From a virus: a stretch of 64,000 nt of DNA. The translations under genes and the position numbers were made by a program. Location of the stretch: the IMG/VR virus record IMGVR_UViG_3300031576_000010, positions 1-64,000 of that record; one strand, given 5' to 3'. The notes under the pieces are model-generated. The model was given only the letters and a program-made list of their open reading frames with translations. It searched no databases and was not told where the DNA came from. How positions within the stretch are numbered: the first letter of the stretch is position 1; each line of letters starts with the position of its first letter. This document shows, piece by piece, positions 4,455 to 20,933 of the stretch.

Positions 4455-5105
4455 CTACCTTCTGCTCCCGAACGTAGGGGTCTTACGGTGGCACGGGACA
4501 CAGAGGGTTCTGCCGTTCCGGACGTCGAACCGAAGCTCCGGGTATCGCGCGAACGGCTTGATGTGGTCAGCGTTCAGCCGGCCACCACGAGTACCGCATG
4601 TTCGACAGGTGTAGTCGTCCCGCGTGAACACGGCCGTCCGCCAAGTCGCGTACTCAGCGGACATGCGAATTCGAGTGGCTTCCGGAGATGCACCGCCTTT
4701 CCAGTTGTGCGCTTTCTCACCACGTTGAGCCGCAGCGATCTTCGCGCGTGTTTCCGGTCGGCACTCACGTCCAAGCAACGCCTTACGCAGCTTTTCCCTA
4801 ACGCTGGGCCTCGACAGGATCTCCCTGTTCGCCTTCTGAATTCGCTCCAGTGCTTCTGGGCTGTGTCGCCTGCCTGTGTGCTTAGTGATCATCCTGGTGC
4901 GATACGCGGGATCGGCCCATCGCCTCTTCATTCCAGCCGACATCTTCGCGATCGTTTCGGGCGCCTTCTCGACCCCCTTGTTCTGTGTCTTCCCGCGGTG
5001 GGCAGCGGCCATCATCTCGGCATAGCCTGGATCCCTCCAGGACCGAAATTTAGCTTCCGACAGCTTCCTCCTCGTCTCCTTGCTGTGCTTGGACCCCTTC
5101 CGCAC
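4455..5105 (-). CDS. NUMOD3-HNH homing endonuclease
   Basis: Repeated HSxETRxKLS/ETRAKI NUMOD3 motifs, HNWKGG, and RDDYTCRTC...ADHIKPF...NGRTLCVPCH; inserted antisense. Confidence 0.9.
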   Translation of the reverse strand: MRKGSKHSKETRRKLSEAKFRSWRDPGYAEMMAAAHRGKTQNKGVEKAPETIAKMSAGMKRRWADPAYRTRMITKHTGRRHSPEALERIQKANREILSRPSVREKLRKALLGRECRPETRAKIAAAQRGEKAHNWKGGASPEATRIRMSAEYATWRTAVFTRDDYTCRTCGTRGGRLNADHIKPFARYPELRFDVRNGRTLCVPCHRKTPTFGSRR

Positions 5106-5119
5106 ACCAAGAGGATATC

Positions 5120-6754
5120 ATGTACCTCATAGACGGTACGCCACTCCTCTACAGGGCCGCCCACTCCTATACCCTGACAACCTCACGCGGTGAGCCAAGC
5201 GGCATCGTCTACGGAGCGGTTAAGATCCTGTTGGGGCTCATTCGCAAGCTCGACACCACCACCGCGGAGATAGTCGTGTTCTGGGACCATGGGAGATCAC
5301 GTTATCGGACCGCCCGCTACCCCGCCTACAAGGACACGCCCGCCCGCGCCGCATCCAAGGCGATGTTGCCAGGAGGATCGTTCCAGGATCAGCGGGCCGC
5401 CGTCCATGCCATCTTCCAGGCGAAGGGGATCCGACAGGTCTCGGTCGAGGGAATCGAAGCGGATGACCTCATCGCCATCGCGACGACCACCGGCACTCAT
5501 GTGGTCGTGTCGGACGATCTAGACCTTTGGCAGCTCATCGGGCAGCGCGGCACCCAGGTGTACGCGCCCGTCAAGGAGATGTGGGTCCGCGATCGGGACG
5601 ACTGCTTCAAGCTGACGGGCCTGTGGCCCGAGCAGATCGCCCCCTACAAATCACTTTCCGGTGATCCAAGTGACGGACTACCCGGCGTCACGGGCGTGGG
5701 CGACAAGACCGCCAAGCAGCTCCTGTCGGTCGTCCAAGACCTCGCCGAGCTGTACCGACGGCTTCGCACACCTGGCGACCGCTTGCCCGTCAGCGACCGG
5801 ATCGTCAACGCGCTGCTCGCCGAGGAGGATCGAGTCAAGCTGTGGTTCGACCTGTGCCAGCCGCTCGATTGGTCGATGCTGTCGCCCGCCGAGCAGGCCG
5901 GCTTTCTGGCCGGATGGCAGGGCCCCCTCCAGACCGACCGGACCGCCGAGTTCGAGCTGTACGAATCGTGGGAGCTGTACGAGTTCCGCCGGAAGCTATC
6001 GGAAGTCCCGTGGACCCGCCCGATCGCGGAGCCGGAGGTCCCGCGGGGCGATAGGATCGCCCGCCGGGGCATGCCGGCCAACCCGGACGATTGGCAGGTC
6101 CAACAGGCCGCCACCGCCGCGCAGGTGCGAGGCTGTCATGCCTGCACGATGCGACAGGAGTGCAGCGGGCCAGTTCCCGGCAACGTCGAGCGCGCGACTG
6201 AACGGCCGTGGGCCATGATCGTTGGGCGCAACCCAGGCGCCTCGGAGGACCGGGAAGGTCGTGGGTTCGTGGGGCCGGCGGGCAAGCGGCTCAACCAGTT
6301 GCTCGTCGGTCGAGCGGCCGATGAACGTGAGGTCCACGGCCGGTTGATCGAGCGCGCGACCACCTGGGTGACCAACACAGCGAAATGCTGGACAACAGGC
6401 AATCGAGAACCAGAGCCGCATGAGTGGCAGGTGTGCGCGGGGCTATTTCTCCGGGAAGAGATCCGGGCGATTCAGCCACGCCTCATCCTATCGTTCGGCG
6501 CGCTTGCGATGACTGCCTTGACAGGGTATACTGACTCCATCATGCAGCGATCCGGCACGACCGTCGCGGGCGTGGAAGCAAATGGGATAGTACAGTACGC
6601 CGTGCTGGATGGCGGGGAACGCCGGTGGGACCCTGTCATACCGCCCGCCTGCACGATCGTGTTGCTGCCCCACCCTGCCGCCGCGCTACGGACCAGGCAA
6701 GCGGAGCTGAAGCTCCAGCAGGCCGGCAGAGTTGTTGCGGATCTTCTCAAGTGA
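5120..6754 (+). CDS. 5'-3' exonuclease (PolA-N/FEN type) fused to family-4 uracil-DNA glycosylase-like domain
   Basis: N-terminal LIDG...EADD...SDDLDLWQL...GDPSDGLPGVTGVGDKTA; C-terminal CHACTMR...IVGRNPGASEDREGRGFVGPAGKRL, TNTAKC, NREP, LPHPAA. Confidence 0.85.
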   Translation: MYLIDGTPLLYRAAHSYTLTTSRGEPSGIVYGAVKILLGLIRKLDTTTAEIVVFWDHGRSRYRTARYPAYKDTPARAASKAMLPGGSFQDQRAAVHAIFQAKGIRQVSVEGIEADDLIAIATTTGTHVVVSDDLDLWQLIGQRGTQVYAPVKEMWVRDRDDCFKLTGLWPEQIAPYKSLSGDPSDGLPGVTGVGDKTAKQLLSVVQDLAELYRRLRTPGDRLPVSDRIVNALLAEEDRVKLWFDLCQPLDWSMLSPAEQAGFLAGWQGPLQTDRTAEFELYESWELYEFRRKLSEVPWTRPIAEPEVPRGDRIARRGMPANPDDWQVQQAATAAQVRGCHACTMRQECSGPVPGNVERATERPWAMIVGRNPGASEDREGRGFVGPAGKRLNQLLVGRAADEREVHGRLIERATTWVTNTAKCWTTGNREPEPHEWQVCAGLFLREEIRAIQPRLILSFGALAMTALTGYTDSIMQRSGTTVAGVEANGIVQYAVLDGGERRWDPVIPPACTIVLLPHPAAALRTRQAELKLQQAGRVVADLLK

Positions 6755-8267: not shown

Positions 8268-8774
8268 GTGGGGATCCCGCTCTACAAGGCGGCCGTCCTG
8301 ATGGGCTACCAGAAGGCCCACGTGGCCGGGCCAAGAGGCCAGCTCATCCGGGTGTCGATTGGGTCGCCCCTGTTCCCCGGCCAATGGACCGAGCTGAAGA
8401 TCGGGGACGGGTCCGGCATGTACATGCACGGCCGCACCAAGAAACCGATGCTCTGGTGGGTCGCGGAGCAGTGGCTGGCGGACGGCGACCTCCTCAAGAT
8501 CGAGACGAAGGTGGGGGAGGCGGGGGTCGGGCGGGACGAAACCCGCTCGATGGAGATGGTGTTCTCGATCGATCCACGCGCCCCTCTCGTCGAGGTCAAG
8601 TGGAAGGGGCTGGGCTATCGGGACTGGCCCCTCCTGAAGGCACGGGTCCGGGAGGTGTCGCGCACGACCCCCCAGATGGAACGGGACATCTCGATCACCG
8701 CGGTCTATGACGACCGGCAGGACGGCCCGCGCGATAGCGAGGCGGTGGCAACCAAGCGGCAGGCTGACGAATGA
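8268..8774 (+). CDS. hypothetical protein
   Basis: Packed ORF with phage codon usage. Confidence 0.6.
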   Translation: MGIPLYKAAVLMGYQKAHVAGPRGQLIRVSIGSPLFPGQWTELKIGDGSGMYMHGRTKKPMLWWVAEQWLADGDLLKIETKVGEAGVGRDETRSMEMVFSIDPRAPLVEVKWKGLGYRDWPLLKARVREVSRTTPQMERDISITAVYDDRQDGPRDSEAVATKRQADE

Positions 8775-9034
8775 GCGGCCGGCCCATCACCGTCTCGATC
8801 GACTACTTGCCAGACGGATCCAACGACTTGGTCGCCGACGACGTCGTGGTGGTGGCGTTCCGGCGGGACGGCCGCGCGAACGTCGAGACCGTTCAGACGT
8901 TCCAACCGCGCCCCGATCGTCGCATCATGCTGAACGCCGCGAAGGCGCTGCTCGCCGAGCTGGCGGAGGATGAGCGTGACATCTATGGGAAAGCGGCGGC
9001 CAGGGCGCTCGAACGGGTCCACCGGAAACTGTAG
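8771..9034 (+). CDS. hypothetical protein
   Basis: ATGA overlap with the previous gene. Confidence 0.55.
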   Translation: MSGRPITVSIDYLPDGSNDLVADDVVVVAFRRDGRANVETVQTFQPRPDRRIMLNAAKALLAELAEDERDIYGKAAARALERVHRKL

Positions 9035-9183
9035 GGTCCGATGGGTCAACGGACGAGGCGGCGGCAGAGTGGTGGGGGGCGACACGATCAAGTGGATCGC
9101 GCCCGCCGAGTTCATTGTGCCGGTCACCATCGTCACCAGGAACATCGAGCAGGCGCTCGACGCGCTGGGTTGGAGGAAGCGAC

Positions 9184-9504
9184 GTGGACACGATCGTCAA
9201 GTACGTGGGGATCCGGCACGAAGGCGTCTGCATGGTCCGGCGGACCGAGCTGCGAAAGGGCGTGGTCATCCGGATGAACGAGATGACCAGCGTGCCCGCC
9301 TTCGACTGGGGGGACGCCGGAGACCATGACGGAGCCGGCCAGCTCGCGCTCGCGATCCTGTCCGACCACCTTCGCGATGACCTGAAGGCCATCCGGTTCC
9401 GTTCGGCCTACCGGGACGCTGTGATCGCAAGACTCCCGCAAGCCACCTGGGAGCTGCCCGCCGAAGAGGTCGAGCGGGTCGTGAAGGAGTTGCGGGTTGG
9501 CTGA
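9184..9504 (+). CDS. DUF6166-like phage protein
   Basis: FDWG...GAGQLALAILSDHL motif. Confidence 0.55.
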   Translation: MDTIVKYVGIRHEGVCMVRRTELRKGVVIRMNEMTSVPAFDWGDAGDHDGAGQLALAILSDHLRDDLKAIRFRSAYRDAVIARLPQATWELPAEEVERVVKELRVG

Positions 9505-9772
9505 CCAGTTCATCTACGTCCACGAGGACGAATACGACCCGGTCGACTGCATCACGGCCGGCGAGTTACGCGCCAGCGGGGTCGCGATCCCCTCGGACGT
9601 GCCGGACTGCGGGTGGGTGCCGCGCGCGTCCATCAAGCAGTCGATCGCGGACGATTGCTCGGTCACACCGGACGGCCGGTTCAACGCGACCATCGAGATC
9701 CAGTTCACCGTGGCGTTCCGGTGGGTCGAGATGGACTGTACGGTCGATCCGCCCGTCCAGGAGGAGCCATGA
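9497..9772 (+). CDS. hypothetical protein
   Basis: Overlapping packed ORF. Confidence 0.5.
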   Translation: MADQFIYVHEDEYDPVDCITAGELRASGVAIPSDVPDCGWVPRASIKQSIADDCSVTPDGRFNATIEIQFTVAFRWVEMDCTVDPPVQEEP

Positions 9773-10167
9773 ACGACGCGACCAAGTGGGGCTGGATGTG
9801 GGACGGGGATGAGGATGCGCACGGCCCGTTCGACTCGCGCGAAGAGGCGCTCGCGGATGCCAACGCCAAGCTGGTGGACATAGGTGACGCGTTCTCCGCG
9901 ACCGTCATGCTGGGTCACTGCCGATACGCCGACCCGGTCGACTCGATCGACATGGAGGTCGATCACGTCCTCGATATGATGGACCAGCGGGCAGGCGAAA
10001 ACGACTTCGGATGGTACGACGACGAGATTTTCGAGGCGAAGGGAACGAAGGTCGACGCCCAGAAGGCGCTCACCGCCTGCCTGGAGGGATGGGCGCGCGA
10101 GTGGGTCGAAACGTCCGTCTGGACGCTCGATGAGGTCGATCGGGTCGAGCTGACCCGGGATTGCTAG
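9769..10167 (+). CDS. hypothetical acidic phage protein
   Basis: GGAGGAG RBS; MNDATKW...HGPFDSREEALADA. Confidence 0.6.
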   Translation: MNDATKWGWMWDGDEDAHGPFDSREEALADANAKLVDIGDAFSATVMLGHCRYADPVDSIDMEVDHVLDMMDQRAGENDFGWYDDEIFEAKGTKVDAQKALTACLEGWAREWVETSVWTLDEVDRVELTRDC

Positions 10168-10173
10168 GGAGGA

Positions 10174-10395
10174 GTGGGTCGGATCAAGGTCGAGGTGAAT
10201 GGCAAACTGGCCATGTTGCGCGAGGAGACGTCCATGGAGACGCGGGAGCGGGAGACTCGCGAGGCGTGGGCGGTTGAGGACCGGCAGACCCTCGTGTGCG
10301 CGGCCAAGAGCCGCCGGGTACCCGGCGCCGACCACATGAGCAGAGCTAAGCTGCTCGACGCTATTGTGGCGATTGAGCTGGGCAAGGATCGATGA
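10174..10395 (+). CDS. small protein with Rho-N/HeH-like motif
   Basis: AKSRRVPGADHMSRAKLLDAI. Confidence 0.45.
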   Translation: MGRIKVEVNGKLAMLREETSMETRERETREAWAVEDRQTLVCAAKSRRVPGADHMSRAKLLDAIVAIELGKDR

Positions 10396-11288
10396 TCACG
10401 CTGGCGGGCGCGGGGCGCGACCGACTCGCCATCTTCCTGGTCGACGAACCCGAGGATGCCGCGGCGGTGATCCGCTCGCTCCTGAACGTCCGGGAGAACC
10501 GGAACCAGACCGGCTTCTTCCTCCCGGTCCACGACTTCCCGATCCTCCGCGAACGGCTCGACCGCCTTGGCATCACCCAAACAACCGGCCGGCGCGAAAT
10601 GGACGACAACGCCGCACTCGCGGTCCGGTCGTACCTGGCCGCGCTCGAACGGAACGATCGCATCAAGGCGGGCGACCTGAACGACGAGATCGTCGCGGAC
10701 ATCGAAGCAGGTGCGCTCAAGAGTCCCCTGTGGACCGACCAGGTCGCGGACGTCCGGTTCATCCTGCGGCACGGGCGTGTCGGGGTGTTCAGCGAGATGG
10801 GGGTGGGCAAGAGCTTGACCGCGCTCGCCGGCTTCGTGGTCTTGCGGGCCCGCCGGCTCGCAAGGTACGCGCTGGTCATCGGGCCCAACGCGGTCAAGCA
10901 GAACTGGATCCGGCAGATCGCCCAGCACACCAGCATGACGGTCGAGGAGCTGGGGAACGGGCGGTCGACCGTCTTGCGCCGCATCAAGAAGCAGGCGGCC
11001 CGCCGGACCGACGTCTGCATCACGCACTACGAGGCGCTCCGGTCCGACGACATCCGCGACCAGCTCGTCAAGATGCCGTTCGACATGGTCATCTTAGATG
11101 AGATTCATCGTGCAAAAAACCTCGACACCGACACGACCAAGGCGGTGGCCGACACGCTCGCGCGGATCCGCCCGGCCGTCGAGCTAGTCGAAGCTGATAT
11201 CGAGCTGGTGACAGAGACTGGCATCGTATTGACGACCGCACTTCTTCCTGCTAGCATGGCCATTGGTGATGAGGTCGAGTTCCTCTAG
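10392..11288 (+). CDS. SNF2-family helicase, N-terminal fragment (motifs I-II)
   Basis: Walker A variant SEMGVGKS, ALVIGP, ITHYEAL and Walker B ILDEIH; stops before motif III. Confidence 0.85.
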   Translation: MITLAGAGRDRLAIFLVDEPEDAAAVIRSLLNVRENRNQTGFFLPVHDFPILRERLDRLGITQTTGRREMDDNAALAVRSYLAALERNDRIKAGDLNDEIVADIEAGALKSPLWTDQVADVRFILRHGRVGVFSEMGVGKSLTALAGFVVLRARRLARYALVIGPNAVKQNWIRQIAQHTSMTVEELGNGRSTVLRRIKKQAARRTDVCITHYEALRSDDIRDQLVKMPFDMVILDEIHRAKNLDTDTTKAVADTLARIRPAVELVEADIELVTETGIVLTTALLPASMAIGDEVEFL

Positions 11289-11919
11289 ACGAAAGTTTAC
11301 CGACAGGCAGGAGAAGGCGATCTGCCGTCGTTACTCGGCCGGCGGAGACGGCTGCGTCATACTTGCCAAGGCGTTCGGCTGCACGCACCAGACCATCTTG
11401 GATGTGTTGCGACGTCACGATGTCGCGGTCCGAGACCACACCGCACCAAAGCCAGGCCGCCGAAAGCTGAAAGGACAGGAGAGACGCGTGCTCGCCGCGT
11501 ATGCGGCTGGAGCCAGCATCAGAAAGCTAGCGGTCAAACACGGGGTCTCGGACGTGGCGGTCAAGGGGCTCCTCGTTCGCAACGCCGTCGAGATCCGCAA
11601 GGTGCGAGGGCCGACGGCTTGGAACTGGAACGGCGGCCGTCATGCGACGAGCGCCGGTTACATCTACGTGCGGTTATACCCTGGCCACCGCTTCTTCCAC
11701 CTGACGAGACGCGGCTTGATCCTTGAACACCGGTTGATCATGGCGCAACTGCTTGGGCGACCACTCACGGCACGCGAGATGGTTCACCATATCAACGGGA
11801 TCAAGGACGACAACCGCCAGGAGAACCTTCAGCTCCACCACAGGAACCACGGATCCGGAGTGGTGCTCAGATGTCAGGCGTGTGGGTCTGTAGATATCAA
11901 ACCGGACAAGATCGCTTGA
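11269..11919 (+). CDS. HNH homing endonuclease with tandem HTHs
   Basis: WNWNGG, ILEHRLIMAQLLGRPL, VHHINGIKDDNRQENL; overlaps the 3' end of the SNF2 N-fragment. Confidence 0.85.
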   Translation: MRSSSSRRKFTDRQEKAICRRYSAGGDGCVILAKAFGCTHQTILDVLRRHDVAVRDHTAPKPGRRKLKGQERRVLAAYAAGASIRKLAVKHGVSDVAVKGLLVRNAVEIRKVRGPTAWNWNGGRHATSAGYIYVRLYPGHRFFHLTRRGLILEHRLIMAQLLGRPLTAREMVHHINGIKDDNRQENLQLHHRNHGSGVVLRCQACGSVDIKPDKIA

Positions 11920-11946
11920 CACACGCAACCCGTCAGCGCCATAACT
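11916..11946 (+). promoter_or_regulatory. putative promoter of the dinG-cas12 unit
   Basis: TTGACACACGCAA followed by a CATAAC-like -10 element upstream of the DinG ATG. Confidence 0.5.
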
Positions 11947-11958
11947 GCCCGAGGATCC

Positions 11959-14049
11959 ATGAGCGACTACATCGACGACGTCTTCGGGGCGAACGGCATC
12001 TTGGCCAAGAGTGACCTGCGCGCCGCCGTCCGGCCCGGCCAGATCGAGATGGCGCGAGCGGTCGACCATTCGCTCCGCGCCCGCGCCAACATGATGTGCG
12101 AGGCGGGAACCGGGACGGGCAAAACGTTCGCCTACCTGGTGCCCGCGATCGCCAACCAGTTGGTCACGATCGTCGTGACGCGCAACAACCTGCTGGCCGA
12201 CCAGCTCTACCTCAAGGACCTGCCGACCCTCCACCGGCTCCTTCCGTGGAAGTTCACGTTCGCGCAGATCAAGGGGAAGGGGCGGTACCTGTGCGTCGCC
12301 AAGTTCCCGGGGCTTCCGGGCTCATCGCCCCCGCCCCTACAACGGTACGATGACGCCGACGTCGACGCCGAGATCCAGCGGTGGGCCCCAACCACCCGGA
12401 CGGGCGACTTCTCGGAGCTGTCGTTCACCATCCCGGACCGCCTGCTCCACCGCTACACCGCCAACCAGGACGAGTGTGAACGGCGCAAGTGCCCCGCGTT
12501 CCAGTCGTGCCACTACTACGCGGCCAAGCGGAACGCGGCAGTCGCCCAGGTGGTCGTGACCAACTACCACGTGTTCTTCTCGCACCTGCGGTACGGCCGC
12601 GTCCTGCCCGACTACGACGTCGTCATCATGGACGAGGGGCACGACGCCCCCGACATCGCGCGCGACTTCTTCGGGTTCCGCGTGACCGCTGGGGCGGTCA
12701 GGAGGATCGCGGGTCTGGTCGGCAGAGCCTCGAAGGCCAGCGGGGACGCGGCCGCCGCGCTCAAGAACGAGTTGATCGACTCGGCCAACACCCTGTTCGC
12801 CGACCTGGCTGCCTACCAGGCGATCGAGCGGGGCATCCGGATCAGGAAACCGATCGCCGTCGAGTACACCGGAACCGTCCGGCTGCTCCGCGATGCCGCC
12901 AGCCAGTTGAAAGACGAGGCCGATGAGCTGGCTGTAGAGGACCCGCCTGGCCGCCAGGAGTTGCTCCGGCATTCCCGCCGCGCCTCCGAACTGGCCCGCC
13001 AGATCACCGAGGCGGTCAACCTCTCGAAGCACGAGTCGTTCATCTACCAGATCGACGGCGATCGCGCCGACCTGGTCAGCCGGGCGATCAACCCGGCCGA
13101 GTTTCTCGCGCGCCATCTCAACGTCGGGCCCGCGCCCGACACCGAGGAGTCGAGCGCGGCCGAGAATGACGATGGCGTCTACGACGACCAACCGGCCGAC
13201 GAGACACCCGAGCCCCACGCGCACGTCATGACGTCCGCGACCATCACGACCCCGACGCTCGGCGGGGCGCCGTCGTTCGAGTTCGTGCGCACCACCATGG
13301 GGATCAAGGAGACGGGCGTCTGCTTGGCCGAGTCGCCATTCCAGCTCGACCGACAGTGCCTCCTGATCATCCCGTGGGAAGCGCCCAGGCCGCCGGAGGG
13401 TCGTCTGTCCCCCGCCACCAGAGCCGAACGGATGAAGGGGTGGCACGCGGGTGTCGCCAGCATGGTGGTCAAGGTGGCGGAGCGGGCGCGCGGCCGTACC
13501 CTCGCGCTCTTCACGTCGAACGCGTCGCTCAACGCATCGTACGACGCGCTCGTGCGCGCGGGCCTGCCGTACCAGATCCTCCGGCAGGGTGGCGGCACCC
13601 CCAACGCCAAGCTGGTCGAGGCGTTCAAGCGGGACGTCAACTCGGTCCTGCTGGGCGTCGACTCGTTCTGGCAGGGGATCGATGTGCCTGGCGAATCGCT
13701 CTCGTGCGTCGTGATCGACAAGCTGCCATACAAGCACAGCGGCATCGACCCCATCCTCGACGCGATCGAAGAGCGGGACGGACGCGACCGTGCGTTCACC
13801 GAGTACAACCTGCCCCGCACCATCATCCAGTTCCGACAGGCGTTCGGCCGGCTGATTCGGTCAGAGGCCGACAAGGGCGTGGTCGTCATGCTCGACCCGC
13901 GCGTCATCGAGCGAAACCGCGCCCAGTTTCTCGGCGCGTTGCCTGGTGTGCGACTCAGCCAGGACCTCGGCGACATCCCATGCTTCCTCGACGGCGCTGC
14001 ACCGATCCCATTCGTGTTGCCGCCTCCGCCGCGGGTTGGAATCCGATGA
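11959..14049 (+). CDS. dinG: DinG/YoaA-family Fe-S 5'-3' DNA helicase
   Basis: Q motif RPGQ, Walker A EAGTGTGKT, Fe-S cysteines (YLC...CERRKCPAFQSC), DEGH, FWQGIDVPG and QAFGRLIRS, all intact. Confidence 0.92.
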   Translation: MSDYIDDVFGANGILAKSDLRAAVRPGQIEMARAVDHSLRARANMMCEAGTGTGKTFAYLVPAIANQLVTIVVTRNNLLADQLYLKDLPTLHRLLPWKFTFAQIKGKGRYLCVAKFPGLPGSSPPPLQRYDDADVDAEIQRWAPTTRTGDFSELSFTIPDRLLHRYTANQDECERRKCPAFQSCHYYAAKRNAAVAQVVVTNYHVFFSHLRYGRVLPDYDVVIMDEGHDAPDIARDFFGFRVTAGAVRRIAGLVGRASKASGDAAAALKNELIDSANTLFADLAAYQAIERGIRIRKPIAVEYTGTVRLLRDAASQLKDEADELAVEDPPGRQELLRHSRRASELARQITEAVNLSKHESFIYQIDGDRADLVSRAINPAEFLARHLNVGPAPDTEESSAAENDDGVYDDQPADETPEPHAHVMTSATITTPTLGGAPSFEFVRTTMGIKETGVCLAESPFQLDRQCLLIIPWEAPRPPEGRLSPATRAERMKGWHAGVASMVVKVAERARGRTLALFTSNASLNASYDALVRAGLPYQILRQGGGTPNAKLVEAFKRDVNSVLLGVDSFWQGIDVPGESLSCVVIDKLPYKHSGIDPILDAIEERDGRDRAFTEYNLPRTIIQFRQAFGRLIRSEADKGVVVMLDPRVIERNRAQFLGALPGVRLSQDLGDIPCFLDGAAPIPFVLPPPPRVGIR

Positions 14050-15959
14050 AAAGAAAACTATTGACTACCGAAACAATGGACGATGACGTCACGCGAGAGA
14101 ATCAAGAGGAAGAGAAAACGGGACCAAAGCGCCATGTCCCGCGAGAGCGAGCAACCGCTGCCCTCCGACTCGATGTTCGACGCGTCACGTCCACCGGCCT
14201 CGTCGGCAAAGAGGCATGGGCATTGCTCACCTCCGAGTATGAAAAGGTCGCGCGGGGCGTCCAAGACGGACTGACACGTGTGTGGTTGCGGATCCACCAG
14301 CTACGTCAACAACACGGTCGAATCAGGTGGCCGTTTACCGCTGAGATGACGGCGTGGCCTGAAGGTACCCCATTACCAGTCGAGTGGTTTCGGGACACCG
14401 ACTTCGACCGGGATCCGACCGTAGGTCCGAGGTATATGCCGCCTATCATTACCGGCAAGACAAGCAAGCCATTGAAGAATCAACCCAAGAAGCCCGACTT
14501 CCTTGCGGCCTACCGGGCCGGCGAATGGTTGGGCGTACAGGACACCATCTACTACGCGCTCCGTGCCCAAGGGGTCGGTAGCGCGATCGCTGCCAGCACA
14601 TCCAACAAGATCGCCGGCTCGGAGCTGTCCTGGTCGAAGTTGATCCGGCTGATCAATGGTGGACTCAAGTATCCGGTGCTCGACCGAACATTCATGATCA
14701 TTCCAGGGAGTGACTGGAGCCTCTCGTTCTCTCCGGTCGAGCGCCCCGTCACCAAGAAGGATGAGCACGGCAACGTCATGGTCGACAAACGCGGCAAGGA
14801 GCTTTACGTACGCGATGCGGCCAAGAAGGTCATGTACGCGCCCGTCTTCGATGAGAACGGCGACCCGGTCCTCGCGCCCGTCATCAATTTCCGCGTCGGT
14901 ATCGACAACCTGCCTTTACGACTCACGTGCGAGCGGTTCCACGGGAAGGGCGCGCGTTCACGCAACGTCATCCTCAACCACTTGGCAGCGATGGGGGCAA
15001 GTGTCGGAGATGTCAACACCGACCAAAAGAAGACGCGAAGGAAGAAACCGCTCGATGCCGACGAAGTGGCCGCTATCATAAAGACTGGCTGGCACCGCGG
15101 AGCCATCACGATCCGTCGTGTCTGTGAGAGGGCCGGGGCCAAGACGTCGTGGCAAGCGATCATCGCATACCACTCGCCAAGACCGGACAAGAACACGGAG
15201 ACAGACGCGGTCGTCGCGGTACACCGAGGCATCGCCAACTTTCTGACGGTTGCGGTGCTGTATCCTAATCGAGACAAGCCGTGGTTTCCGCATGCTTTCT
15301 CCGGCGACGGGATCGTCCGATCGAAAGTGATGTTCGGGGCTGAGCGTGATCGAGCACGACGCCGCGGCGGCGGCGTTGGGCGGCGGGCGCGCAACCGCCT
15401 GATGGCAAAAGTGGGTGACAAGGAAAGACGGCTCAGCAGTCTTCACTGCTGGCGGGCTGCCGCCTGGCTACAACGTATCATCGAGGAGGTAAATCCCAAA
15501 CTAGTCATCCTAGACGATTTCTCCACGCCGATCGTATCGGACTCTGGAGAATCATTGCCAGGGATGATTACCAGGTTTCCGTTCGCCCAACTCAAGCTGA
15601 AGGTGATCGACGCCATCACTAGAAGGGCGGGCGTTGAAGTCATCGAGGTACCGTCGAAGTACGTGTCGGTCCAGTGCCCAGTGTGCAACAACACCGATCA
15701 GGGGAACATTCACAAGCGTGCGGGCGTACGGTGCATCCCGCATTTGGAACGAGATGATCGCAACGCTGGCACGTTCGTGGAATCGGGTGAGTTCCACTGC
15801 ACCATGTGTCACACGGTCGGCGACTTGGATCGGATCGCCGCGCTAAATCTGCTGATTCGAGTAGGTGATCCGGACGGGAAGCTCCGCAAAGGGCTGTGGC
15901 GATACTATGAGCAGATCAACAGGGTCAAGGAGGCGGAAAAGAAGAAGAAGGTCGGATAG
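14046..15959 (+). CDS. cas12: type V CRISPR effector, Cas12f-like, 637 aa, non-canonical RuvC (H-D-D)
   Basis: RuvC-I VVAVHRG, Arg-rich helix RGGGVGRRAR, RuvC-II LVILDDF, FPFAQL, Zn finger CPVC...CTMC, RuvC-III DLDRIAALNL; adjacent to the CRISPR array; ATG overlaps the DinG TGA. Confidence 0.9.
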   Translation: MKRKLLTTETMDDDVTRENQEEEKTGPKRHVPRERATAALRLDVRRVTSTGLVGKEAWALLTSEYEKVARGVQDGLTRVWLRIHQLRQQHGRIRWPFTAEMTAWPEGTPLPVEWFRDTDFDRDPTVGPRYMPPIITGKTSKPLKNQPKKPDFLAAYRAGEWLGVQDTIYYALRAQGVGSAIAASTSNKIAGSELSWSKLIRLINGGLKYPVLDRTFMIIPGSDWSLSFSPVERPVTKKDEHGNVMVDKRGKELYVRDAAKKVMYAPVFDENGDPVLAPVINFRVGIDNLPLRLTCERFHGKGARSRNVILNHLAAMGASVGDVNTDQKKTRRKKPLDADEVAAIIKTGWHRGAITIRRVCERAGAKTSWQAIIAYHSPRPDKNTETDAVVAVHRGIANFLTVAVLYPNRDKPWFPHAFSGDGIVRSKVMFGAERDRARRRGGGVGRRARNRLMAKVGDKERRLSSLHCWRAAAWLQRIIEEVNPKLVILDDFSTPIVSDSGESLPGMITRFPFAQLKLKVIDAITRRAGVEVIEVPSKYVSVQCPVCNNTDQGNIHKRAGVRCIPHLERDDRNAGTFVESGEFHCTMCHTVGDLDRIAALNLLIRVGDPDGKLRKGLWRYYEQINRVKEAEKKKKVG

Positions 15960-15964
15960 GGATT

Positions 15965-16107
15965 CTCGGCGGCGAGAAGGAGCTGTGAAGCGATGGTCCC
16001 CAACAGACGGCCGACTGCACCGGCCGACTGGGTACCGCACTGTCGGTATCGCAAAACCACCGCGAGCATACGGGCCAGCAGCTTCACATCTCCTTCTTGC
16101 CGCAGAG
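15965..16107 (+). ncRNA. candidate tracrRNA
   Basis: A 27-bp imperfect terminal stem (15965-15991 with 16081-16107) encloses two hairpins; CTGCAC (16015-16020) and CCACCGC (16057-16063) are complementary to the repeat 3' end. Confidence 0.65.
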
Positions 16108-16152
16108 TACGGCGTGCGAGCGGTCCAGTGGTGCGTAACCAACAGAACCGAC

Positions 16153-16164
16153 GTTCTTTGACAA
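16153..16164 (+). promoter_or_regulatory. boxA-like antitermination site (or -35 element) in the CRISPR leader
   Basis: GTTCTTTGACAA, 84 nt upstream of repeat 1. Confidence 0.45.
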
Positions 16165-16204
16165 TTCAAAGGTAGCTGACGACGTTTTGCTAGGTGCTCG
16201 CAAT

Positions 16205-16248
16205 CCCGTCGCCAGGTACGCGGATTTGTACCGCTACCTGGCGACGGG
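16205..16248. repeat. leader-terminal inverted repeat
   Basis: Perfect 14-bp arms CCCGTCGCCAGGTA / TACCTGGCGACGGG ending on the first base of repeat 1. Confidence 0.85.
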
Positions 16249-19242
16249 TTCGCATCGGTAGGGACGATGCGGTGGAGTGCAGGAAGCGGATCAGCGAACG
16301 GGAGAAGGACCGCCGGGAGGTTCGCATCGGTAGGGACGATGCGGTGGAGTGCAGGTCGGCCGCTATCAGTGCGATCGCCTCGTTGAGGGTCGTTCGCATC
16401 GGTAGGGACGATGCGGTGGAGTGCAGGAGATAGTGACATCGGAATGGGACCGATTCTGAACCGAGTTCGCATCGGTAGGGACGATGCGGTGGAGTGCAGG
16501 GGCAGCGTCGAAGCGCAATGCGCGGCCGACGCGGAGTTCGCATCGGTAGGGACGATGCGGTGGAGTGCAGGCGGAAACGGAACTGCATGACGCGCATGAA
16601 GCTGGGTGGTTCGCATCGGTAGGGACGATGCGGTGGAGTGCAGGCCGTGGGCCAACCGGGCGAGCCAGTCGGCCTGGTTCGGTTCGCATCGGTAGGGACG
16701 ATGCGGTGGAGTGCAGGCAGTTTTCGGCCCGCCAGGCGGCGCCCGCTCTCACCGTTCGCATCGGTAGGGACGATGCGGTGGAGTGCAGGGTGAAGTAGCC
16801 GTCGGCCGATGCCGCCGCGCACCTGCCGGGTTCGCATCGGTAGGGACGATGCGGTGGAGTGCAGGGAGCGAGTCGCGTTCGATCAACCATCCCGGCCCGA
16901 CGTTCGCATCGGTAGGGACGATGCGGTGGAGTGCAGGGGCGCAAGCTGAAGGTGCTATTCGATGTCGGCTTCTCGTTCGCATCGGTAGGGACGATGCGGT
17001 GGAGTGCAGGGAGAACAAGGACCAGAGCCTGAACGTTGTCCTTGACGTTCGCATCGGTAGGGACGATGCGGTGGAGTGCAGGTGGGCCGAGCGATACGGC
17101 AAGTCCCTCGGGCTGGACGGTTCGCATCGGTAGGGACGATGCGGTGGAGTGCAGGTCCTGATCGGCGGCTCTACGGGATCAACGTGAGTAGTAGTTCGCA
17201 TCGGTAGGGACGATGCGAAGGAGTGCAGGGCGATCGTTTCGCGAACCGGGGTCGGCACCGTCTACTTCGGTTCGCATCGGTAGGGACGATGCGGTGGAGT
17301 GCAGGGGAGGTTCCGACGGCGCCTCCTCCGAAAGACTGGAGTTCGCATCGGTAGGGACGATGCGGTGGAGTGCAGGTCGTGTGGCGCGTCGACGAAGCGA
17401 TGGAGCAGGAGTGGTTCGCATCGGTAGGGACGATGCGGTGGAGTGCAGGATCGGAATGCCGCGCGCCAGCCCCTGCCGCACGATGGGTTCGCATCGGTAG
17501 GGACGATGCGGTGGAGTGCAGGGTCGGACACACCTCGGCCCTCGCGCGGCCAGGCGACAGGTTCGCATCGGTAGGGACGATGCGGTGGAGTGCAGGCACG
17601 AGACGAAACACCCACGACTTGCGCGGGCGGAGAGTTCGCATCGGTAGGGACGATGCGGTGGAGTGCAGGGGGAGTGCGCGGTCTGGGTTGACGATGAGGT
17701 CGCGAGGTTCGCATCGGTAGGGACGATGCGGTGGAGTGCAGGAACGCGGAACCAAGGCGACCGAGTTCCTCCCACTCGGGCGGTTCGCATCGGTAGGGAC
17801 GATGCGGTGGAGTGCAGGGCGTGCTGACCGGTGCCGGGCGGTAGCGATCTGACCGGTTCGCATCGGTAGGGACGATGCGGTGGAGTGCAGGTCCATCGAG
17901 GGCATCCCCCTCCTAAGCGGAGCTATCGGTTCGCATCGGTAGGGACGATGCGGTGGAGTGCAGGATCGGGTGCATCGAGAATGGCCCTGGTCGCTCTCGC
18001 AGTTCGCATCGGTAGGGACGATGCGGTGGAGTGCAGGAACTGGCGGTTCTCGGGGGTGAGGGCGCAACGGACGCGTTCGCATCGGTAGGGACGATGCGGT
18101 GGAGTGCAGGATGGTCGAGGTGTTCATGACGTCGAGCGGAACTGGGGTTCGCATCGGTAGGGACGATGCGGTGGAGTGCAGGATGGTCGAGGTGTTCATG
18201 ACGTCGAGCGGAACTGGGGTTCGCATCGGTAGGGACGATGCGGTGGAGTGCAGGCAGCGCAGCGACGATGGCCACAGGCGTCACTGGTGCGGGTTCGCAC
18301 CGGTAGAAACGATGCGGTGGAGTGCAGGGTTCGCCAACACGATCATGAAGTATGAAGTCTCGGCATCTGCCGATCGCACCGGTAGGGACGATGCGGTGGA
18401 GTGCAGGCGATGAATGGCTGCTCGGCGAGCTTGCCGACTTCGCGGATCGCACCGGTAGGAACGATGCGGTGGAGTGCAGGTGGTAGTGCGACAACGAGAA
18501 GTCGTGGTGACGGACCAGATCGCACCGGTAGGATGCGGTGGAGTGCAGGCCCAACTCCCCTCGAACCAACCGCGCACCAAATCGCCGAGATCGCACCGGT
18601 AGGGACGATGCGGTGGAGTGCAGGTACGAAGCGAGGCACGTCCGAGGCGAGATTCTGGACTGATCGCACCGGTAGGGACGATGCGGTGGAGTGCAGGAAC
18701 AACCCGGGCTGCACCGCAACGTGTGCGAGCGCCTAGGAACGATGTGGTGGAGTGGTGGAGTGGTGGAGTGCAGGAACGTGTTGTCGGTCCACTCGATAGG
18801 AACGATGTGGTGGAGTGCAGGCAGCCAGGTCAGCCAGCACCCTTCAGCACCCTTGCGGTGATGCCTGTTCGCACCGGTAGGAACGATGCGGTGGAGTGCA
18901 GGCAGGCGGGTGCCGCGTCAGGTGCCCAGCTCGGCTCCAGGTTCGCACGATGTGGTGGAGTGCAGGGCACAGATCGCGGGTGACTTGGTGCTCGCGGAGA
19001 CGCACTGGTATGAACGATGCGGTGGAGTGCAGGGGGCGCGACGAGATGCCTGTCGCCCCTAGGATACCGGATCGCAGTAGGAACGATGCGGTGGAGTGCA
19101 GGACCACAACGTGCGGGTCCGTCAACTGCCGGATTGCGCACCGGTAAGAACGATGCGGTGGAGTGCAGGATCTGGTTCTCGTCGTTCTTCGCTTGGGCCC
19201 AGGTTGTTCAGCACCGGTAGGAACGGTGCGGTGGAAGTAAAG
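16248..19242 (+). CRISPR. CRISPR array, about 42 repeats / 41 spacers
   Basis: 36-nt repeat GTTCGCATCGGTAGGGACGATGCGGTGGAGTGCAGG with a CGCATCG/CGATGCG stem; spacers mostly 35-40 nt; 28 near-perfect repeats at the Cas12-proximal end and progressive degeneration distally. Confidence 0.98.
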
Positions 19243-19272
19243 ATCGCACAGGCGTAGGAGAGGAAGACTGAG

Positions 19273-19869
19273 ATGGAAGAGAGAAAAAGCAGGTACACAA
19301 ACTGGCTCACAGAGCTACGTGCGACACGTGCTCAAAGGGCCAAGGACGAGATCGCGTTCTACGCTCGCATCGCCGAGTTCGAGACCGATACGGACTCGTG
19401 GGAATGGACAGGTATCTCGTTCGACCGAATCCTCAAGCTGGAATGCGGCATCTCGCCAGACCGCTACCGCGCGTACGTCAAGGCTGTCCGGCTCATCGGC
19501 CATGAGATGCTGCTTGGACTCGGGATGGACGTTGCGCTACGGCTCCGTCGTTTCATCGTTGATGACATTATACTGGCGACCCGTCTTTATGAGCGGGTTG
19601 CCACCCGCATCATTGGGTTCTCTGCTACGCACGACCGCTACCCAAGCCCAACCTACATCGGCCAGATCCTACGTGAAGAAGCCAAACGGCTCGGCATCGT
19701 CGTGCCGGTCAAGCAGAAGACCGAAGACAAGCTACAAACGGCGATCGGTGCGCTTCGCCGCATCGCTGAAGCGAAGGGTCTGAGCCGCAAAGAGATGCAG
19801 ACGATCGCCGCCGAAACGCTCGTACAAGTGGACATTGAGGTGGATGGTGTGGAGGACCACCCGGAGTGA
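19273..19869 (+). CDS. hypothetical protein downstream of the array
   Basis: RBS-preceded ATG; 198 aa, helical; GTGA overlap with the SNF2 C-fragment. Confidence 0.7.
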   Translation: MEERKSRYTNWLTELRATRAQRAKDEIAFYARIAEFETDTDSWEWTGISFDRILKLECGISPDRYRAYVKAVRLIGHEMLLGLGMDVALRLRRFIVDDIILATRLYERVATRIIGFSATHDRYPSPTYIGQILREEAKRLGIVVPVKQKTEDKLQTAIGALRRIAEAKGLSRKEMQTIAAETLVQVDIEVDGVEDHPE

Positions 19870-20933
19870 AGGGCCGCATCCGCTCCGTCCGCCCGTTCCA
19901 GGAGGCCCGCCGCGTCCTCCTGACCGGCACGCCTGTCAGCGAATCTCCGCTCAACGCGTTCCCCGTCCTCCAGCTCATCGCGCCCGAACGCGTTCCGTCG
20001 AAGACCCGGTTCGACCACCACTTCATCGTCCGGGCCGCCACAAAGGCGGGGCCCGTCACCGTCCAGAAGGCGGTCGGCTACAACAACCTCGACGAGCTGA
20101 AGCGGATGCTGGAGGCGGTGTCGGTCCGGCGCCTGAAGGCCGACATCCGCGGGATGCCCGACCGCGTCGAGACGGTGCGGTACTGCCAGCCATCCGGCCG
20201 CCAACACGACCACTACCGCGAGATCCTCAAGGGCATCCTGGCCGACATCGCCGCGTCGCCCGACTGGGCCCTCACGCTCGACATCGCGTGCGTCAAGTTG
20301 CTGCGGCTCCGCCAGGTGCTCAACTCGCCCGAGATCCTCGGGCTCGACGGGCGGTCCGGCAAGTACGACGAGCTGGATGGAGTGGTCGAGGAGGTGCTCT
20401 CTGATTCCGGCCCATACGAAGCGAAGCTGTTGATCTGGACCGAGTGGAACCGGGCGGTCGACCTCCTAGCCAGCCGGTACTCTGGACACGGAGTCATCAC
20501 GGTCGACCAGCGGACCACTCAGCAGCAACTCGCCGAGTATGAGAGGACGTTTGACCGTTCAGATGAGCGGATTGTGATTGGGACGCCAAAAAAGGCCGGG
20601 ACGGGGATGGACTGGCTGGCTAGGTGTCGGACGGCCATTTACGTCGAGAAGACGTACTCGCTGGTCAACCATGTTCAAAGCATAGATCGGATCGTCCGGA
20701 GGGTCGGGGAGGGTGACCCGGCCGACTCACCGGCTGTTCAGCAGGTCAAGCGAATCAAGCGGTCACCCGCGTCCATCCTGTATCTCCACGTGCAAAACAG
20801 CGTTGACGACGCGGTTGATTTCGTCCTCCGGAGGAAAATCGATCTTGGCGTCGCCCTCCTCACAGAAGATGCTAGACTCATGGAAGATGGGCGTATGGAT
20901 TTACTCCAGATGCTCCAGACGGGCATGAGCTAG
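19866..20933 (+). CDS. SNF2-family helicase, C-terminal fragment (motif III and HELICc)
   Basis: RRVLLTGTP, RRLKADI, LLRLRQ, SGK, KLLIWT, AGTGMD, QSIDRIVR. Confidence 0.88.
   Translation: MKGRIRSVRPFQEARRVLLTGTPVSESPLNAFPVLQLIAPERVPSKTRFDHHFIVRAATKAGPVTVQKAVGYNNLDELKRMLEAVSVRRLKADIRGMPDRVETVRYCQPSGRQHDHYREILKGILADIAASPDWALTLDIACVKLLRLRQVLNSPEILGLDGRSGKYDELDGVVEEVLSDSGPYEAKLLIWTEWNRAVDLLASRYSGHGVITVDQRTTQQQLAEYERTFDRSDERIVIGTPKKAGTGMDWLARCRTAIYVEKTYSLVNHVQSIDRIVRRVGEGDPADSPAVQQVKRIKRSPASILYLHVQNSVDDAVDFVLRRKIDLGVALLTEDARLMEDGRMDLLQMLQTGMS

What the first reader, a model, noticed from the sequence alone, without database searches (positions are those of the whole stretch)
15207..15854. RuvC catalytic triad is H-D-D on a Cas12f-like scaffold
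Seen: RuvC-I VAVHRG (His393, codon 15222) replaces the usual GxDxG Asp; RuvC-II ILDDF (Asp490, codon 15513) replaces the usual Glu; RuvC-III Asp595 (codon 15828) and the CxxC...CxxC finger are intact. Known: Cas12m (type V-M) has an H-D-D triad and binds DNA without cleaving it. The surrounding motifs here (RGGGVG helix, FPFAQL, tracr-like RNA) look more like Cas12f, suggesting independent convergent inactivation. At 637 aa it is larger than typical Cas12f, with a beta-hairpin-like insertion (KDEHGNVMVDKRGKE...FDENGDPV) and a long loop inside the Zn finger that could serve as partner-docking surfaces (inference).
Basis: partly seen in the sequence, partly recalled or inferred. Interest (0 to 1): 0.85.

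Follow-up and report, generated by a model that had tools for sequence, protein, structure and literature searches.

The report
Phage Cas12f-like effector with His-Asp-Asp site
A large phage from a cave metagenome carries a miniature Cas12f-type CRISPR protein whose DNA-cutting site reads His-Asp-Asp instead of Asp-Glu-Asp. The histidine is inherited from a large, uncharacterised, metagenome-only branch of Cas12f, so the protein most likely clamps target DNA rather than cutting it.

Summary
Window 14046-15959 (+) encodes a 637-aa protein with H393, D490 and D595 at the three RuvC positions and an intact CxxC...CxxC finger. A profile alignment puts these residues on AsCas12f D225, E324 and D401.

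It is not a Cas12m. Sequence profiles match AsCas12f over its full length (E 2e-84) but touch Cas12m proteins only at the C-terminal finger (E 4e-10 to 2e-3). The AlphaFold model ranks Cas12f first (Z 16-17.5) and Cas12m2 34th (Z 13).

The His is not a private event. A strongly supported clade of 117 representative proteins has H, N or R at RuvC-I, never Asp, followed by a near-invariant Arg-Gly. Glu/Asp at RuvC-II flipped at least four times, so H-D-D is a recurrent derived state of an H-E-D family.

The gene sits in a ~100-kb IMG/VR phage record. A highly structured tracrRNA-like RNA and a 42-repeat array follow it. No Cas1 or Cas2 was found.

The upstream DinG helicase is housekeeping-type, native in composition and not seen beside relatives. 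A partnership is therefore unsupported, though not excluded.

Earlier agents of this scan noted the same family on other phage DNA. I rate it a new variant of a known kind, of moderate-to-high interest. Loss of cleavage is inferred, not shown.

The parts
14046..15959 (+). Cas12f-like effector gene, 637 aa (P0002); GC3 0.70 against 0.83-0.90 for the flanking phage genes
15213..15230 (+). RuvC-I motif VAVHRG; H393 (15222-15224) replaces the catalytic Asp and R394-G395 are near-invariant in the clade
15507..15521 (+). RuvC-II motif ILDDF; D490 (15513-15515) replaces the catalytic Glu
15675..15809 (+). CCCC zinc finger (CPVC 544-547 ... CTMC 585-588) with a 37-residue loop between the pairs
15828..15830 (+). 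RuvC-III Asp595, retained
14757..14870 (+). Residues 238-275, a lineage-specific insertion in the WED/beta region; low model confidence
14379..14525 (+). Residues 112-160, an N-terminal insertion absent from most relatives; pLDDT below 50
15962..16110 (+). Candidate tracrRNA: -80.3 kcal/mol, z -7.96. CUGCAC sits in a hairpin loop and CCACCGC in an unpaired stretch, complementary to repeat nt 30-35 and 22-28
   Evidence: no Rfam family
16248..19246 (+). CRISPR array of about 42 repeats of 36 nt. The first 28 repeats are identical and the distal ones are degenerate, with their 3' halves best kept. Spacers are mostly 35-40 nt
19273..19869 (+). 198-aa orphan helical protein (P0278) ending the low-GC3 cassette (GC3 0.69). 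DUF3102-like by atlas features and structure only
11959..14049 (+). Fe-S DinG/YoaA-family helicase, 696 aa. Its stop overlaps the cas12 start (ATGA). GC3 0.90, phage-typical
11263..11919 (+). HTH + HNH_3 protein, 218 aa, probably a homing-type endonuclease

Best explanation
This is a phage-encoded, CRISPR-associated effector of the Cas12f (type V-F-like) lineage with a remodelled RuvC pocket.

Proposed mechanism:
- The gene, a structured tracrRNA-like transcript just downstream and the 42-repeat array form one cassette.
- The protein is loaded with tracrRNA:crRNA and finds complementary DNA. The likely targets are rival phages or other mobile elements of its host.
- It forms an R-loop, but because the first metal-binding Asp is His and the Glu is Asp it cannot hold the two-metal site needed for cutting.
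- Instead the His/Arg-Gly/Asp/Asp pocket grips the displaced strand, and the complex acts as a tight roadblock to transcription or replication, as shown for Cas12m2.

Shown here: the residues, their equivalence to the Cas12f triad, clade-wide conservation, the Cas12f fold, and the array and RNA structure.

Inferred: loss of cleavage, use of a tracrRNA, a silencing mode, and the targets.
For: - The residues and their alignment to AsCas12f D225/E324/D401 hold.
- Full-length profile match to AsCas12f, E 2e-84.
- AlphaFold model with pLDDT 80.9 and pTM 0.79. Its best structural matches are all Cas12f: Foldseek E 1e-17 with TMt 0.6, and Z 16-17.5 over about 385 residues.
- A clade of 117 rows (support 99) has H, N or R at RuvC-I and never Asp, with R394 in 109/118 and G395 in 115/118. 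All three substitutes are phosphate-binding side chains, not metal-binding carboxylates. That fits binding rather than catalysis.
- In Cas12m2 the same H-D-D set binds one Mg and the non-target strand, and the protein silences without cutting (PMC10442227; GoCas12m in PMC11013384).
- The system looks maintained: an intact ORF, 28 identical repeats, and a very stable RNA after the gene (z -7.96).
- An H-E-D clade member in GenBank phage Rctr197k also sits beside a CRISPR array.
- No Cas1 or Cas2 in the 99.9-kb record.
Against: - No biochemical data exist for any member of this clade.
- Strong conservation of H, R, E/D and D would also fit a retained, altered catalysis.
- In Cas12m2, reverting H-D-D to D-E-D did not restore cutting, so the triad alone is a weak predictor of activity in either direction (PMC10442227).
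- No spacer target was found, so the biological role is untested.
- The anti-repeat segments are only 6 and 7 nt.
Confidence: 0.6

Rival explanations
1. The remodelled site is still catalytic. The His (with Arg394) and the two acidic residues would support a one-metal or acid-base reaction: nicking, single-strand DNA cutting, or RuvC-dependent pre-crRNA processing as in Cas12c and Cas12j.
For: - H/R-G, E/D and D are under strong purifying selection across more than 100 divergent proteins.
- RuvC-III Asp and the zinc finger are intact.
- A long array needs some processing activity, and no Cas6-like gene was noticed among the flanking ORFs scanned.
Against: - Position 393 tolerates H, N and R, which share hydrogen-bonding to phosphate but not a common catalytic chemistry.
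- The same H-D-D site in Cas12m2 holds one Mg and does not cut DNA, and Cas12m pre-crRNA processing is RuvC-independent (PMC10442227, PMC11013384).
Confidence: 0.18
2. The dead effector is a targeting module for the co-transcribed Fe-S DinG helicase, possibly with the HNH protein. After R-loop formation DinG would load on the displaced strand and unwind or clear DNA. This would be a class 2 analogue of type IV-A CasDinG or of Cas3 recruitment.
For: - The DinG stop overlaps the cas12 start, and no terminator-like site was found between HNH, DinG and cas12.
- One PADLOC type IV DinG model matches at 6e-102.
- Cas12m-Cas3 and DinG-HNH hybrids are on record (PMC10910872).
Against: - The helicase is housekeeping-type: NCBIfam YoaA 432 bits against Csf4 69 bits, best solved relative E. 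coli DinG, and the Fe-S cysteines are kept.
- Its GC3 is 0.90, like neighbouring phage genes, against 0.70 for cas12 and 0.69 for ORF198. It therefore did not arrive with the cassette.
- 43 IMG/VR phage loci carry such a DinG, and none carries a clade member beside it.
- Rctr197k's clade member has no DinG nearby.
- No contig length is shared between the top 120 DinG homologues and 19 close Cas12 relatives.
- Four-base gene overlaps are common in this phage, for example ORF198/SNF2-C.
Confidence: 0.13
3. It is a member of Cas12m (type V-M), a known subtype with H-D-D variants.
For: - Same triad letters, similar size and no adaptation genes (PMC10442227).
- N-E-D and H-D-D states occur both in the published Cas12m clades and in this clade.
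Against: - Profiles hit Cas12m chains only at the C-terminal finger, at E 4e-10 to 2e-3, against 2e-84 full-length for AsCas12f.
- Cas12m2 ranks 22nd or lower by Foldseek and 34th by Z.
- RuvC-I to RuvC-II spacing is 97 residues against 168 in Cas12m2.
- The finger is CCCC, not HCCC.
- A tracrRNA-like RNA is present, whereas Cas12m uses none (PMC11013384).
Confidence: 0.03
4. It is a decaying relic, a Cas12f gene on its way to loss and without function.
For: - Lower GC than its surroundings.
- No spacer matches.
- No adaptation genes.
Against: - Intact 637-codon frame.
- Confident fold.
- Clade-wide conservation of the altered motifs.
- 28 perfectly identical repeats.
Confidence: 0.04

Closest known systems
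Cas12f1 (type V-F1), especially AsCas12f from Acidibacillus sulfuroxidans (PDB 8J12, 7WJU, 8DZJ); also OsCas12f, SpCas12f1, CnCas12f1 and Un1Cas12f1
   Same: - Same fold over about 385 residues (Z 16-17.5).
- Full-length profile homology for the clade (2e-84).
- CCCC finger.
- G-x-G-R and FPF/W-x-Y motifs.
- RuvC-I to RuvC-II spacing of about 97 residues.
- 36-nt repeat followed by the spacer, and a tracrRNA-like RNA between gene and array.
   Different: - RuvC-I Asp is His and RuvC-II Glu is Asp, with an Arg following the His.
- About 200 residues longer than AsCas12f, with three lineage-specific insertions.
- The protein itself matches solved Cas12f chains only weakly on its own (E 0.05).
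- Phage-borne.
Cas12m2 and GoCas12m (type V-M, formerly V-U1)
   Same: - Identical H-D-D letters at the three RuvC positions.
- Miniature size and no adaptation module.
- Cas12m2 is the functional model for binding without cutting (PMC10442227, PMC11013384).
   Different: - No detectable homology outside the C-terminal finger and a lower structural rank.
- Cas12m2 has a REC2 coiled-coil between RuvC-I and RuvC-II (168-residue spacing), an HCCC finger and no tracrRNA.
Nuclease-dead Cas12f homologues: sigma-E-associated dCas12f (PDB 9N9C) and the CRISPR-linked dCas12f cluster mentioned in PMC13472631
   Same: Cas12f-derived, predicted non-cutting and RNA-guided DNA binders. The clade profile matches 9N9C at 4e-23.
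   Different: Those proteins have C-terminal truncations that remove part of the RuvC site, and most lost the CRISPR array. This one keeps RuvC-III, the finger and a 42-repeat array, and has no sigma factor partner next to it.
Survey-level groups in Altae-Tran et al. 2023 (PMC10691335): Cas12f branches with altered catalytic sites, and V-U24 (noncanonical RuvC-I, HTH-protein neighbour)
   Same: Noncanonical RuvC-I, found mainly in metagenomes, and an HTH-containing gene lies two genes upstream here.
   Different: Identity with any of these groups could not be tested, because no sequences or supplements were available. None has been characterised experimentally as far as I could find.

Membership tests
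Cas12f (type V-F) lineage | Sequence homology to Cas12f over WED, REC and RuvC, not only the zinc ribbon | tested here: met
   The A3 profile matches AsCas12f residues 4-419 at E 2e-84. The A1 profile matches at 4e-27. PADLOC Cas12u3/Cas12f models match at 1e-7 to 6e-6.
Cas12f (type V-F) lineage | Miniature bilobed fold with RuvC split by a CCCC zinc-finger TNB domain | tested here: met
   Model pLDDT 80.9. All top structural matches are Cas12f. Pfam Cas12f1-like_TNB scores 29.3 bits against a cut-off of 26.3.
Cas12f (type V-F) lineage | Catalytic D-E-D triad and RNA-guided dsDNA cleavage | tested here: not met
   The triad is H393-D490-D595. Cleavage itself cannot be tested with these tools.
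Cas12f (type V-F) lineage | Adjacent CRISPR array and tracrRNA with anti-repeat | tested here: inconclusive
   The array is certain. The structured RNA has z -7.96 and split 6- and 7-nt anti-repeats. No contiguous anti-repeat exists and there are no RNA data.
Cas12f (type V-F) lineage | Acts as a homodimer on one guide RNA | not tested
   Two copies exceed the size limit of the complex tool.
Cas12m (type V-M) | Sequence homology to V-U1/Cas12m proteins | tested here: not met
   Cas12m chains match only profile positions of about 303-447 (the finger region) at E 4e-10 to 2e-3. They do not match the A1 profile at E up to 10. The protein's only PADLOC matches are Cas12f, Cas12u3 and Cas12u2 models.
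Cas12m (type V-M) | REC2 coiled-coil inserted between RuvC-I and RuvC-II; HCCC finger in Cas12m2 | tested here: not met
   Spacing from H393 to D490 is 97 residues, against 168 from H317 to D485. The finger is CCCC (PMC10442227).
Cas12m (type V-M) | Single crRNA, no tracrRNA | tested here: inconclusive
   A tracrRNA-like structured RNA is present, but its use is unproven.
Cas12m (type V-M) | Noncanonical RuvC triad such as H-D-D | tested here: met
   This feature is shared by convergence and does not define ancestry.
Type IV-A CasDinG (Csf4), for the upstream helicase | Reaches the Csf4 equivalog score; vestigial Fe-S domain without the cysteines (the second part is recalled from the literature, not read here) | tested here: not met
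   TIGR03117 cas_csf4 scores 69 bits against a cut-off of 400, while YoaA scores 432 bits. Four conserved Cys are kept. The best solved relative is E. coli DinG.

The most novel reading that the evidence does not exclude
A phage has assembled a class 2 counterpart of type IV-A or type I interference. A non-cutting Cas12f-lineage effector marks the target by R-loop formation, then hands the displaced strand to the translationally coupled Fe-S DinG helicase. The helicase might act with the HNH protein of the same transcription unit or with the 198-aa cassette protein. It would strip, unwind or degrade DNA at a distance.
Probability: 0.12. Interest if true: 0.9.

Novelty: new variant of a known kind. 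Interest (0 to 1): 0.58.

Why it matters
- **Convergence.** The same His-Asp-Asp solution would have arisen twice, in Cas12m and in a Cas12f branch. That would point to a general route from RNA-guided cutter to RNA-guided clamp.
- **Phage biology.** The clade is large (at least 117 clusters at 50% identity), almost wholly metagenomic and untested. The two members with known context are phage-borne. It would show that phages favour non-cutting CRISPR effectors, perhaps to silence rivals or host genes without damaging DNA that they may recombine with.
- **Tools.** Natural DNA-binding effectors of 450-640 aa, with a pocket that grips the displaced strand, are attractive scaffolds for CRISPRi and base editing, as Cas12m has been.
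- **A clean test.** H393D, D490E and R394A variants would show how much of Cas12f catalysis depends on the first carboxylate.

Tried and rejected
The gene neighbourhoods of the 19 close relatives could not be read.
- **Collection scans for relatives found nothing.** Viral, genome and metagenome scans with alignment A2 or single relatives returned no related locus.
- **Repeat search.** The 19-nt repeat core gave only single chance matches in viral and genome contigs.
- **Other collections.** Plasmids hold no relative. 'Relatives' cannot be drawn for a virus record.
- **Spacers.** No match in GenBank phages, in the phage's own 99.9 kb or in the fetched loci.
- **L018.** It looked like a second DinG-Cas12 pair but carries an ordinary D-E-D TnpB.
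- **SNF2 split.** GenBank phage SNF2 homologues are too distant (22-28% identity) to define the insertion boundaries.
- **ORF198.**
  - It has no homologue by word search or by phage tblastn.
  - Its similarity to the gene beside Rctr197k's clade member is only pairwise E 0.006.
- **Complex prediction.** Cas12 with ORF198 gave no verdict and counts neither for nor against binding. DinG with Cas12 was not tried, because the pair exceeds the size limit and only one job was allowed.
- **RNA evidence.** No RNA holder is listed among sequencing runs. Rfam has no family for the intergenic RNA.
- **Promoter and terminator scans** were at chance level.
- **Supplements** of PMC10691335 are not held, so identity with V-U24, V-U43 or V-U44 is untested.
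Full report
**The object.** The finding lies in an ORF at window 14046-15959 (+) of 637 codons. The window is the first 64 kb of a 99,908-bp IMG/VR virus record that CheckV rates 57% complete. The same protein occurs on a 187,703-bp JGI contig. The stretch is held by two runs of one cave-metagenome sample. A baseplate wedge protein and other large structural genes lie downstream, so this is a large tailed phage of about 65% GC.

**The observation.**
- These are the RuvC triad positions. In a profile alignment of the family to solved Cas12f chains, His393 falls on the Asp of AsCas12f 'IDLG'.
  - Chain 7wju reads 'IALG' there, which I recall to be the D225A catalytic mutant.
  - Asp490 falls on the Glu of 'QMEDL', and Asp595 on the Asp of 'NADYNAARN'.
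- The residue numbers D225, E324 and D401 for AsCas12f are from my own knowledge. The alignment itself is a tool result.

**What family it is.**
- Alone, the protein is very divergent.
  - Pfam sees only the Cas12f1-like TNB finger.
  - PADLOC gives weak Cas12u3/Cas12f hits.
  - A word-indexed search of 5.8 billion proteins finds only the protein itself.
- An exhaustive HMMER pass over 1.84 billion representatives found 141 relatives. Seventeen sequences gave alignment A1 and 118 gave A3.
- The A3 profile matches AsCas12f from residue 4 to 419 at E 2e-84.
  - Other Cas12f chains follow at 1e-38 to 1e-76, and sigma-E-type dCas12f at 4e-23.
  - Cas12m proteins (UnCas12m4a, Cas12m, Cas12m2, GoCas12m) match at only 4e-10 to 2e-3, and only over the C-terminal finger.
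- An AlphaFold2 model built on A3 has pLDDT 80.9 and pTM 0.79.
  - Foldseek ranks Cas12f chains first (E 1e-17 to 1e-13, target TM about 0.6). Cas12m2 appears from rank 22 (E 1e-9, TM about 0.33).
  - VIA-align gives Z 16-17.5 for Cas12f, 13.0 for Cas12m2 and 12.8 for GoCas12m.
- Three further features follow Cas12f rather than Cas12m2 (PMC10442227):
  - the 97-residue spacing between RuvC-I and RuvC-II, against 168 in Cas12m2;
  - the CCCC finger, against HCCC;
  - the two long helices between the motifs.
- The refutation condition 'clusters inside Cas12m' is therefore not met.

**The His is a clade character, not a private event.**
- Across A3 the triads are HED 68, NED 15, HDD 10, RED 9, HGD 5, REE 4 and DED 2.
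- On a FastTree phylogeny rooted with an ordinary TnpB, 117 rows form one clade (support 99) in which RuvC-I is never Asp.
- The window's protein sits in a 19-row subclade (support 100) of 463-656-aa proteins, with HED 8, HDD 7 and NED 2.
- H-D-D needs at least four changes forced by well-supported branches.
- The residue after the His is Arg in 109 of 118 rows and the next is Gly in 115 of 118.
- History therefore reads as one ancient Asp-to-His/Asn/Arg change in a Cas12f1-like ancestor, followed by repeated Glu/Asp flips.
- The tree is a quick one and has long outgroup branches. The clade's monophyly is well supported, but the root is not secure.

**How it probably works.**
- Cas12m2 carries the same letters. 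There His317 and Asp579 hold a single Mg ion that contacts a non-target-strand phosphate. The second metal is missing and the enzyme silences by tight binding (PMC10442227). GoCas12m (H-D-D) behaves likewise (PMC11013384).
- H, N and R at this position share the ability to bind phosphate, not a catalytic chemistry.
- An added near-invariant Arg sits next door.
- The carboxylate never returns in 117 lineages.
- These three observations fit selection for a strand-gripping pocket rather than for hydrolysis. This is inference. No member has been assayed, and in Cas12m2 the D-E-D revertant did not regain cutting. I therefore leave about 0.18 for a retained, altered catalysis.

**The RNA side.**
- An array of about 42 repeats of 36 nt runs from 16248 to about 19246.
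- The first 28 repeats are identical. The distal repeats degenerate but keep their 3' halves, which places the leader next to cas12 and gives the type V repeat-then-spacer orientation.
- The 149 nt after the stop codon fold at -80.3 kcal/mol (z -7.96, 0 of 200 shuffles as good).
  - CUGCAC lies in a hairpin loop and CCACCGC in an open stretch, complementary to repeat nt 30-35 and 22-28.
  - This suits a Cas12f-type tracrRNA with split anti-repeats, but the segments are short and there are no RNA data.
- No Cas1 or Cas2 is in the record.
- No spacer target was found.

**The neighbours.**
- The upstream 696-aa helicase matches one PADLOC 'type IV DinG' model at 6e-102. Several results argue against a conserved helicase-effector unit:
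  - NCBIfam places it with YoaA/DinG (432 bits), not Csf4 (69 bits against a cut-off of 400).
  - Its best solved relative is E. coli DinG, and its Fe-S cysteines are conserved.
  - Such helicases occur in 43 other IMG/VR phage loci, and none has a clade member beside it. The single apparent exception, L018, is a canonical TnpB.
  - GC3 is 0.90 for DinG and 0.83-0.87 for the flanking SNF2 halves, but 0.70 for cas12 and 0.69 for ORF198. The cas12-RNA-array-ORF198 block looks like a later arrival set down behind a resident helicase gene.
  - The ATGA overlap is one of several in this tightly packed region.
- I could not inspect the relatives' contigs. The pairing therefore stays possible (about 0.13).
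- ORF198 is an orphan with only DUF3102-like resemblance. Its match to the gene beside Rctr197k's clade member is weak.

**Comparison with what is known.**
- The literature has Cas12m H-D-D effectors (PMC10442227, PMC11013384).
- Cas12f-derived dCas12f pairs with sigma-E, and a CRISPR-linked dCas12f cluster is mentioned in passing (PMC13472631).
- Survey notes record Cas12f branches and V-U24/43/44 groups with altered RuvC sites (PMC10691335).
- A Cas12m-Cas3 hybrid is also on record (PMC10910872).
- I found no characterised H-E-D or H-D-D Cas12f. One clade member has sat in GenBank since about 2016 as a 'transposase-like protein' of phage Rctr197k, next to an annotated CRISPR.
- Earlier agents of this scan reported the same phage-borne family on other DNA. 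My tests agree with them on the closest relative and on the clade-wide His/Asn.

**Verdict.** It is a new variant of a known kind: a nuclease-deficient type V effector, here on the Cas12f lineage. Interest is moderate to high because the clade is large, phage-borne and untested. This example adds the H-D-D state, an unusually long array and an intriguing but unsupported DinG adjacency.

Noticed in passing
window 10392-11288 and 19866-20933: An SNF2 helicase is encoded as two ORFs 8.6 kb apart. Pfam SNF2-rel_dom positions 23-150 lie in the first ORF; positions 148-289 plus Helicase_C lie in the second. The HNH, DinG, cas12, array and ORF198 genes all lie between them. GenBank phage homologues were too distant to define an insertion boundary.
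   Followed up: partly
window 11959-14049 versus 14046-15959 and 19273-19869: There is a sharp codon-composition step. GC3 is 0.90 for DinG, 0.70 for cas12 and 0.69 for ORF198. This suggests that cas12, the RNA, the array and ORF198 arrived as one cassette, separately from DinG.
   Followed up: yes
L002 (KX853510.1, Virus Rctr197k) 8422-9825 and 15379-17247: This 197-kb GenBank phage carries an H-E-D clade member (identical to P0026, annotated 'transposase-like protein') beside a CRISPR array. A second, unrelated Cas12-like ORF with a canonical GIDLG motif lies beside a larger array.
   Followed up: partly
window 18111-18146 and 18183-18218: Two adjacent spacers are identical, so one repeat-spacer unit is duplicated inside the array.
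   Followed up: no
window 14046-14435: IMG's gene call for this protein starts at residue 131 (507 aa). It omits an N-terminal segment that is conserved in relatives and folds with pLDDT above 90.
   Followed up: yes
window 5054-6754: A single 566-aa ORF combines a 5'-3' exonuclease (FEN-like N and SAM-fold domains) with a uracil-DNA glycosylase superfamily domain.
   Followed up: no
L018 (IMGVR_UViG_3300029267_004887) 9977-13560: Another large phage has a DinG helicase followed 300 nt later by an ordinary D-E-D TnpB of 389 aa, with no array. It shows that DinG next to a TnpB-fold gene can arise by chance.
   Followed up: yes
window 19273-19869: The 198-aa orphan protein after the array resembles DUF3102-type phage and plasmid proteins by language-model features (0.89) and structure (TM about 0.5) only. 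It is a possible DNA-binding accessory.
   Followed up: partly
L033 (IMGVR_UViG_3300011013_000020) 15168-15932: A homologue of the HTH-HNH protein (E 5e-20) lies about 3 kb from the DinG gene of an unrelated phage. This fits a mobile homing-type endonuclease.
   Followed up: no
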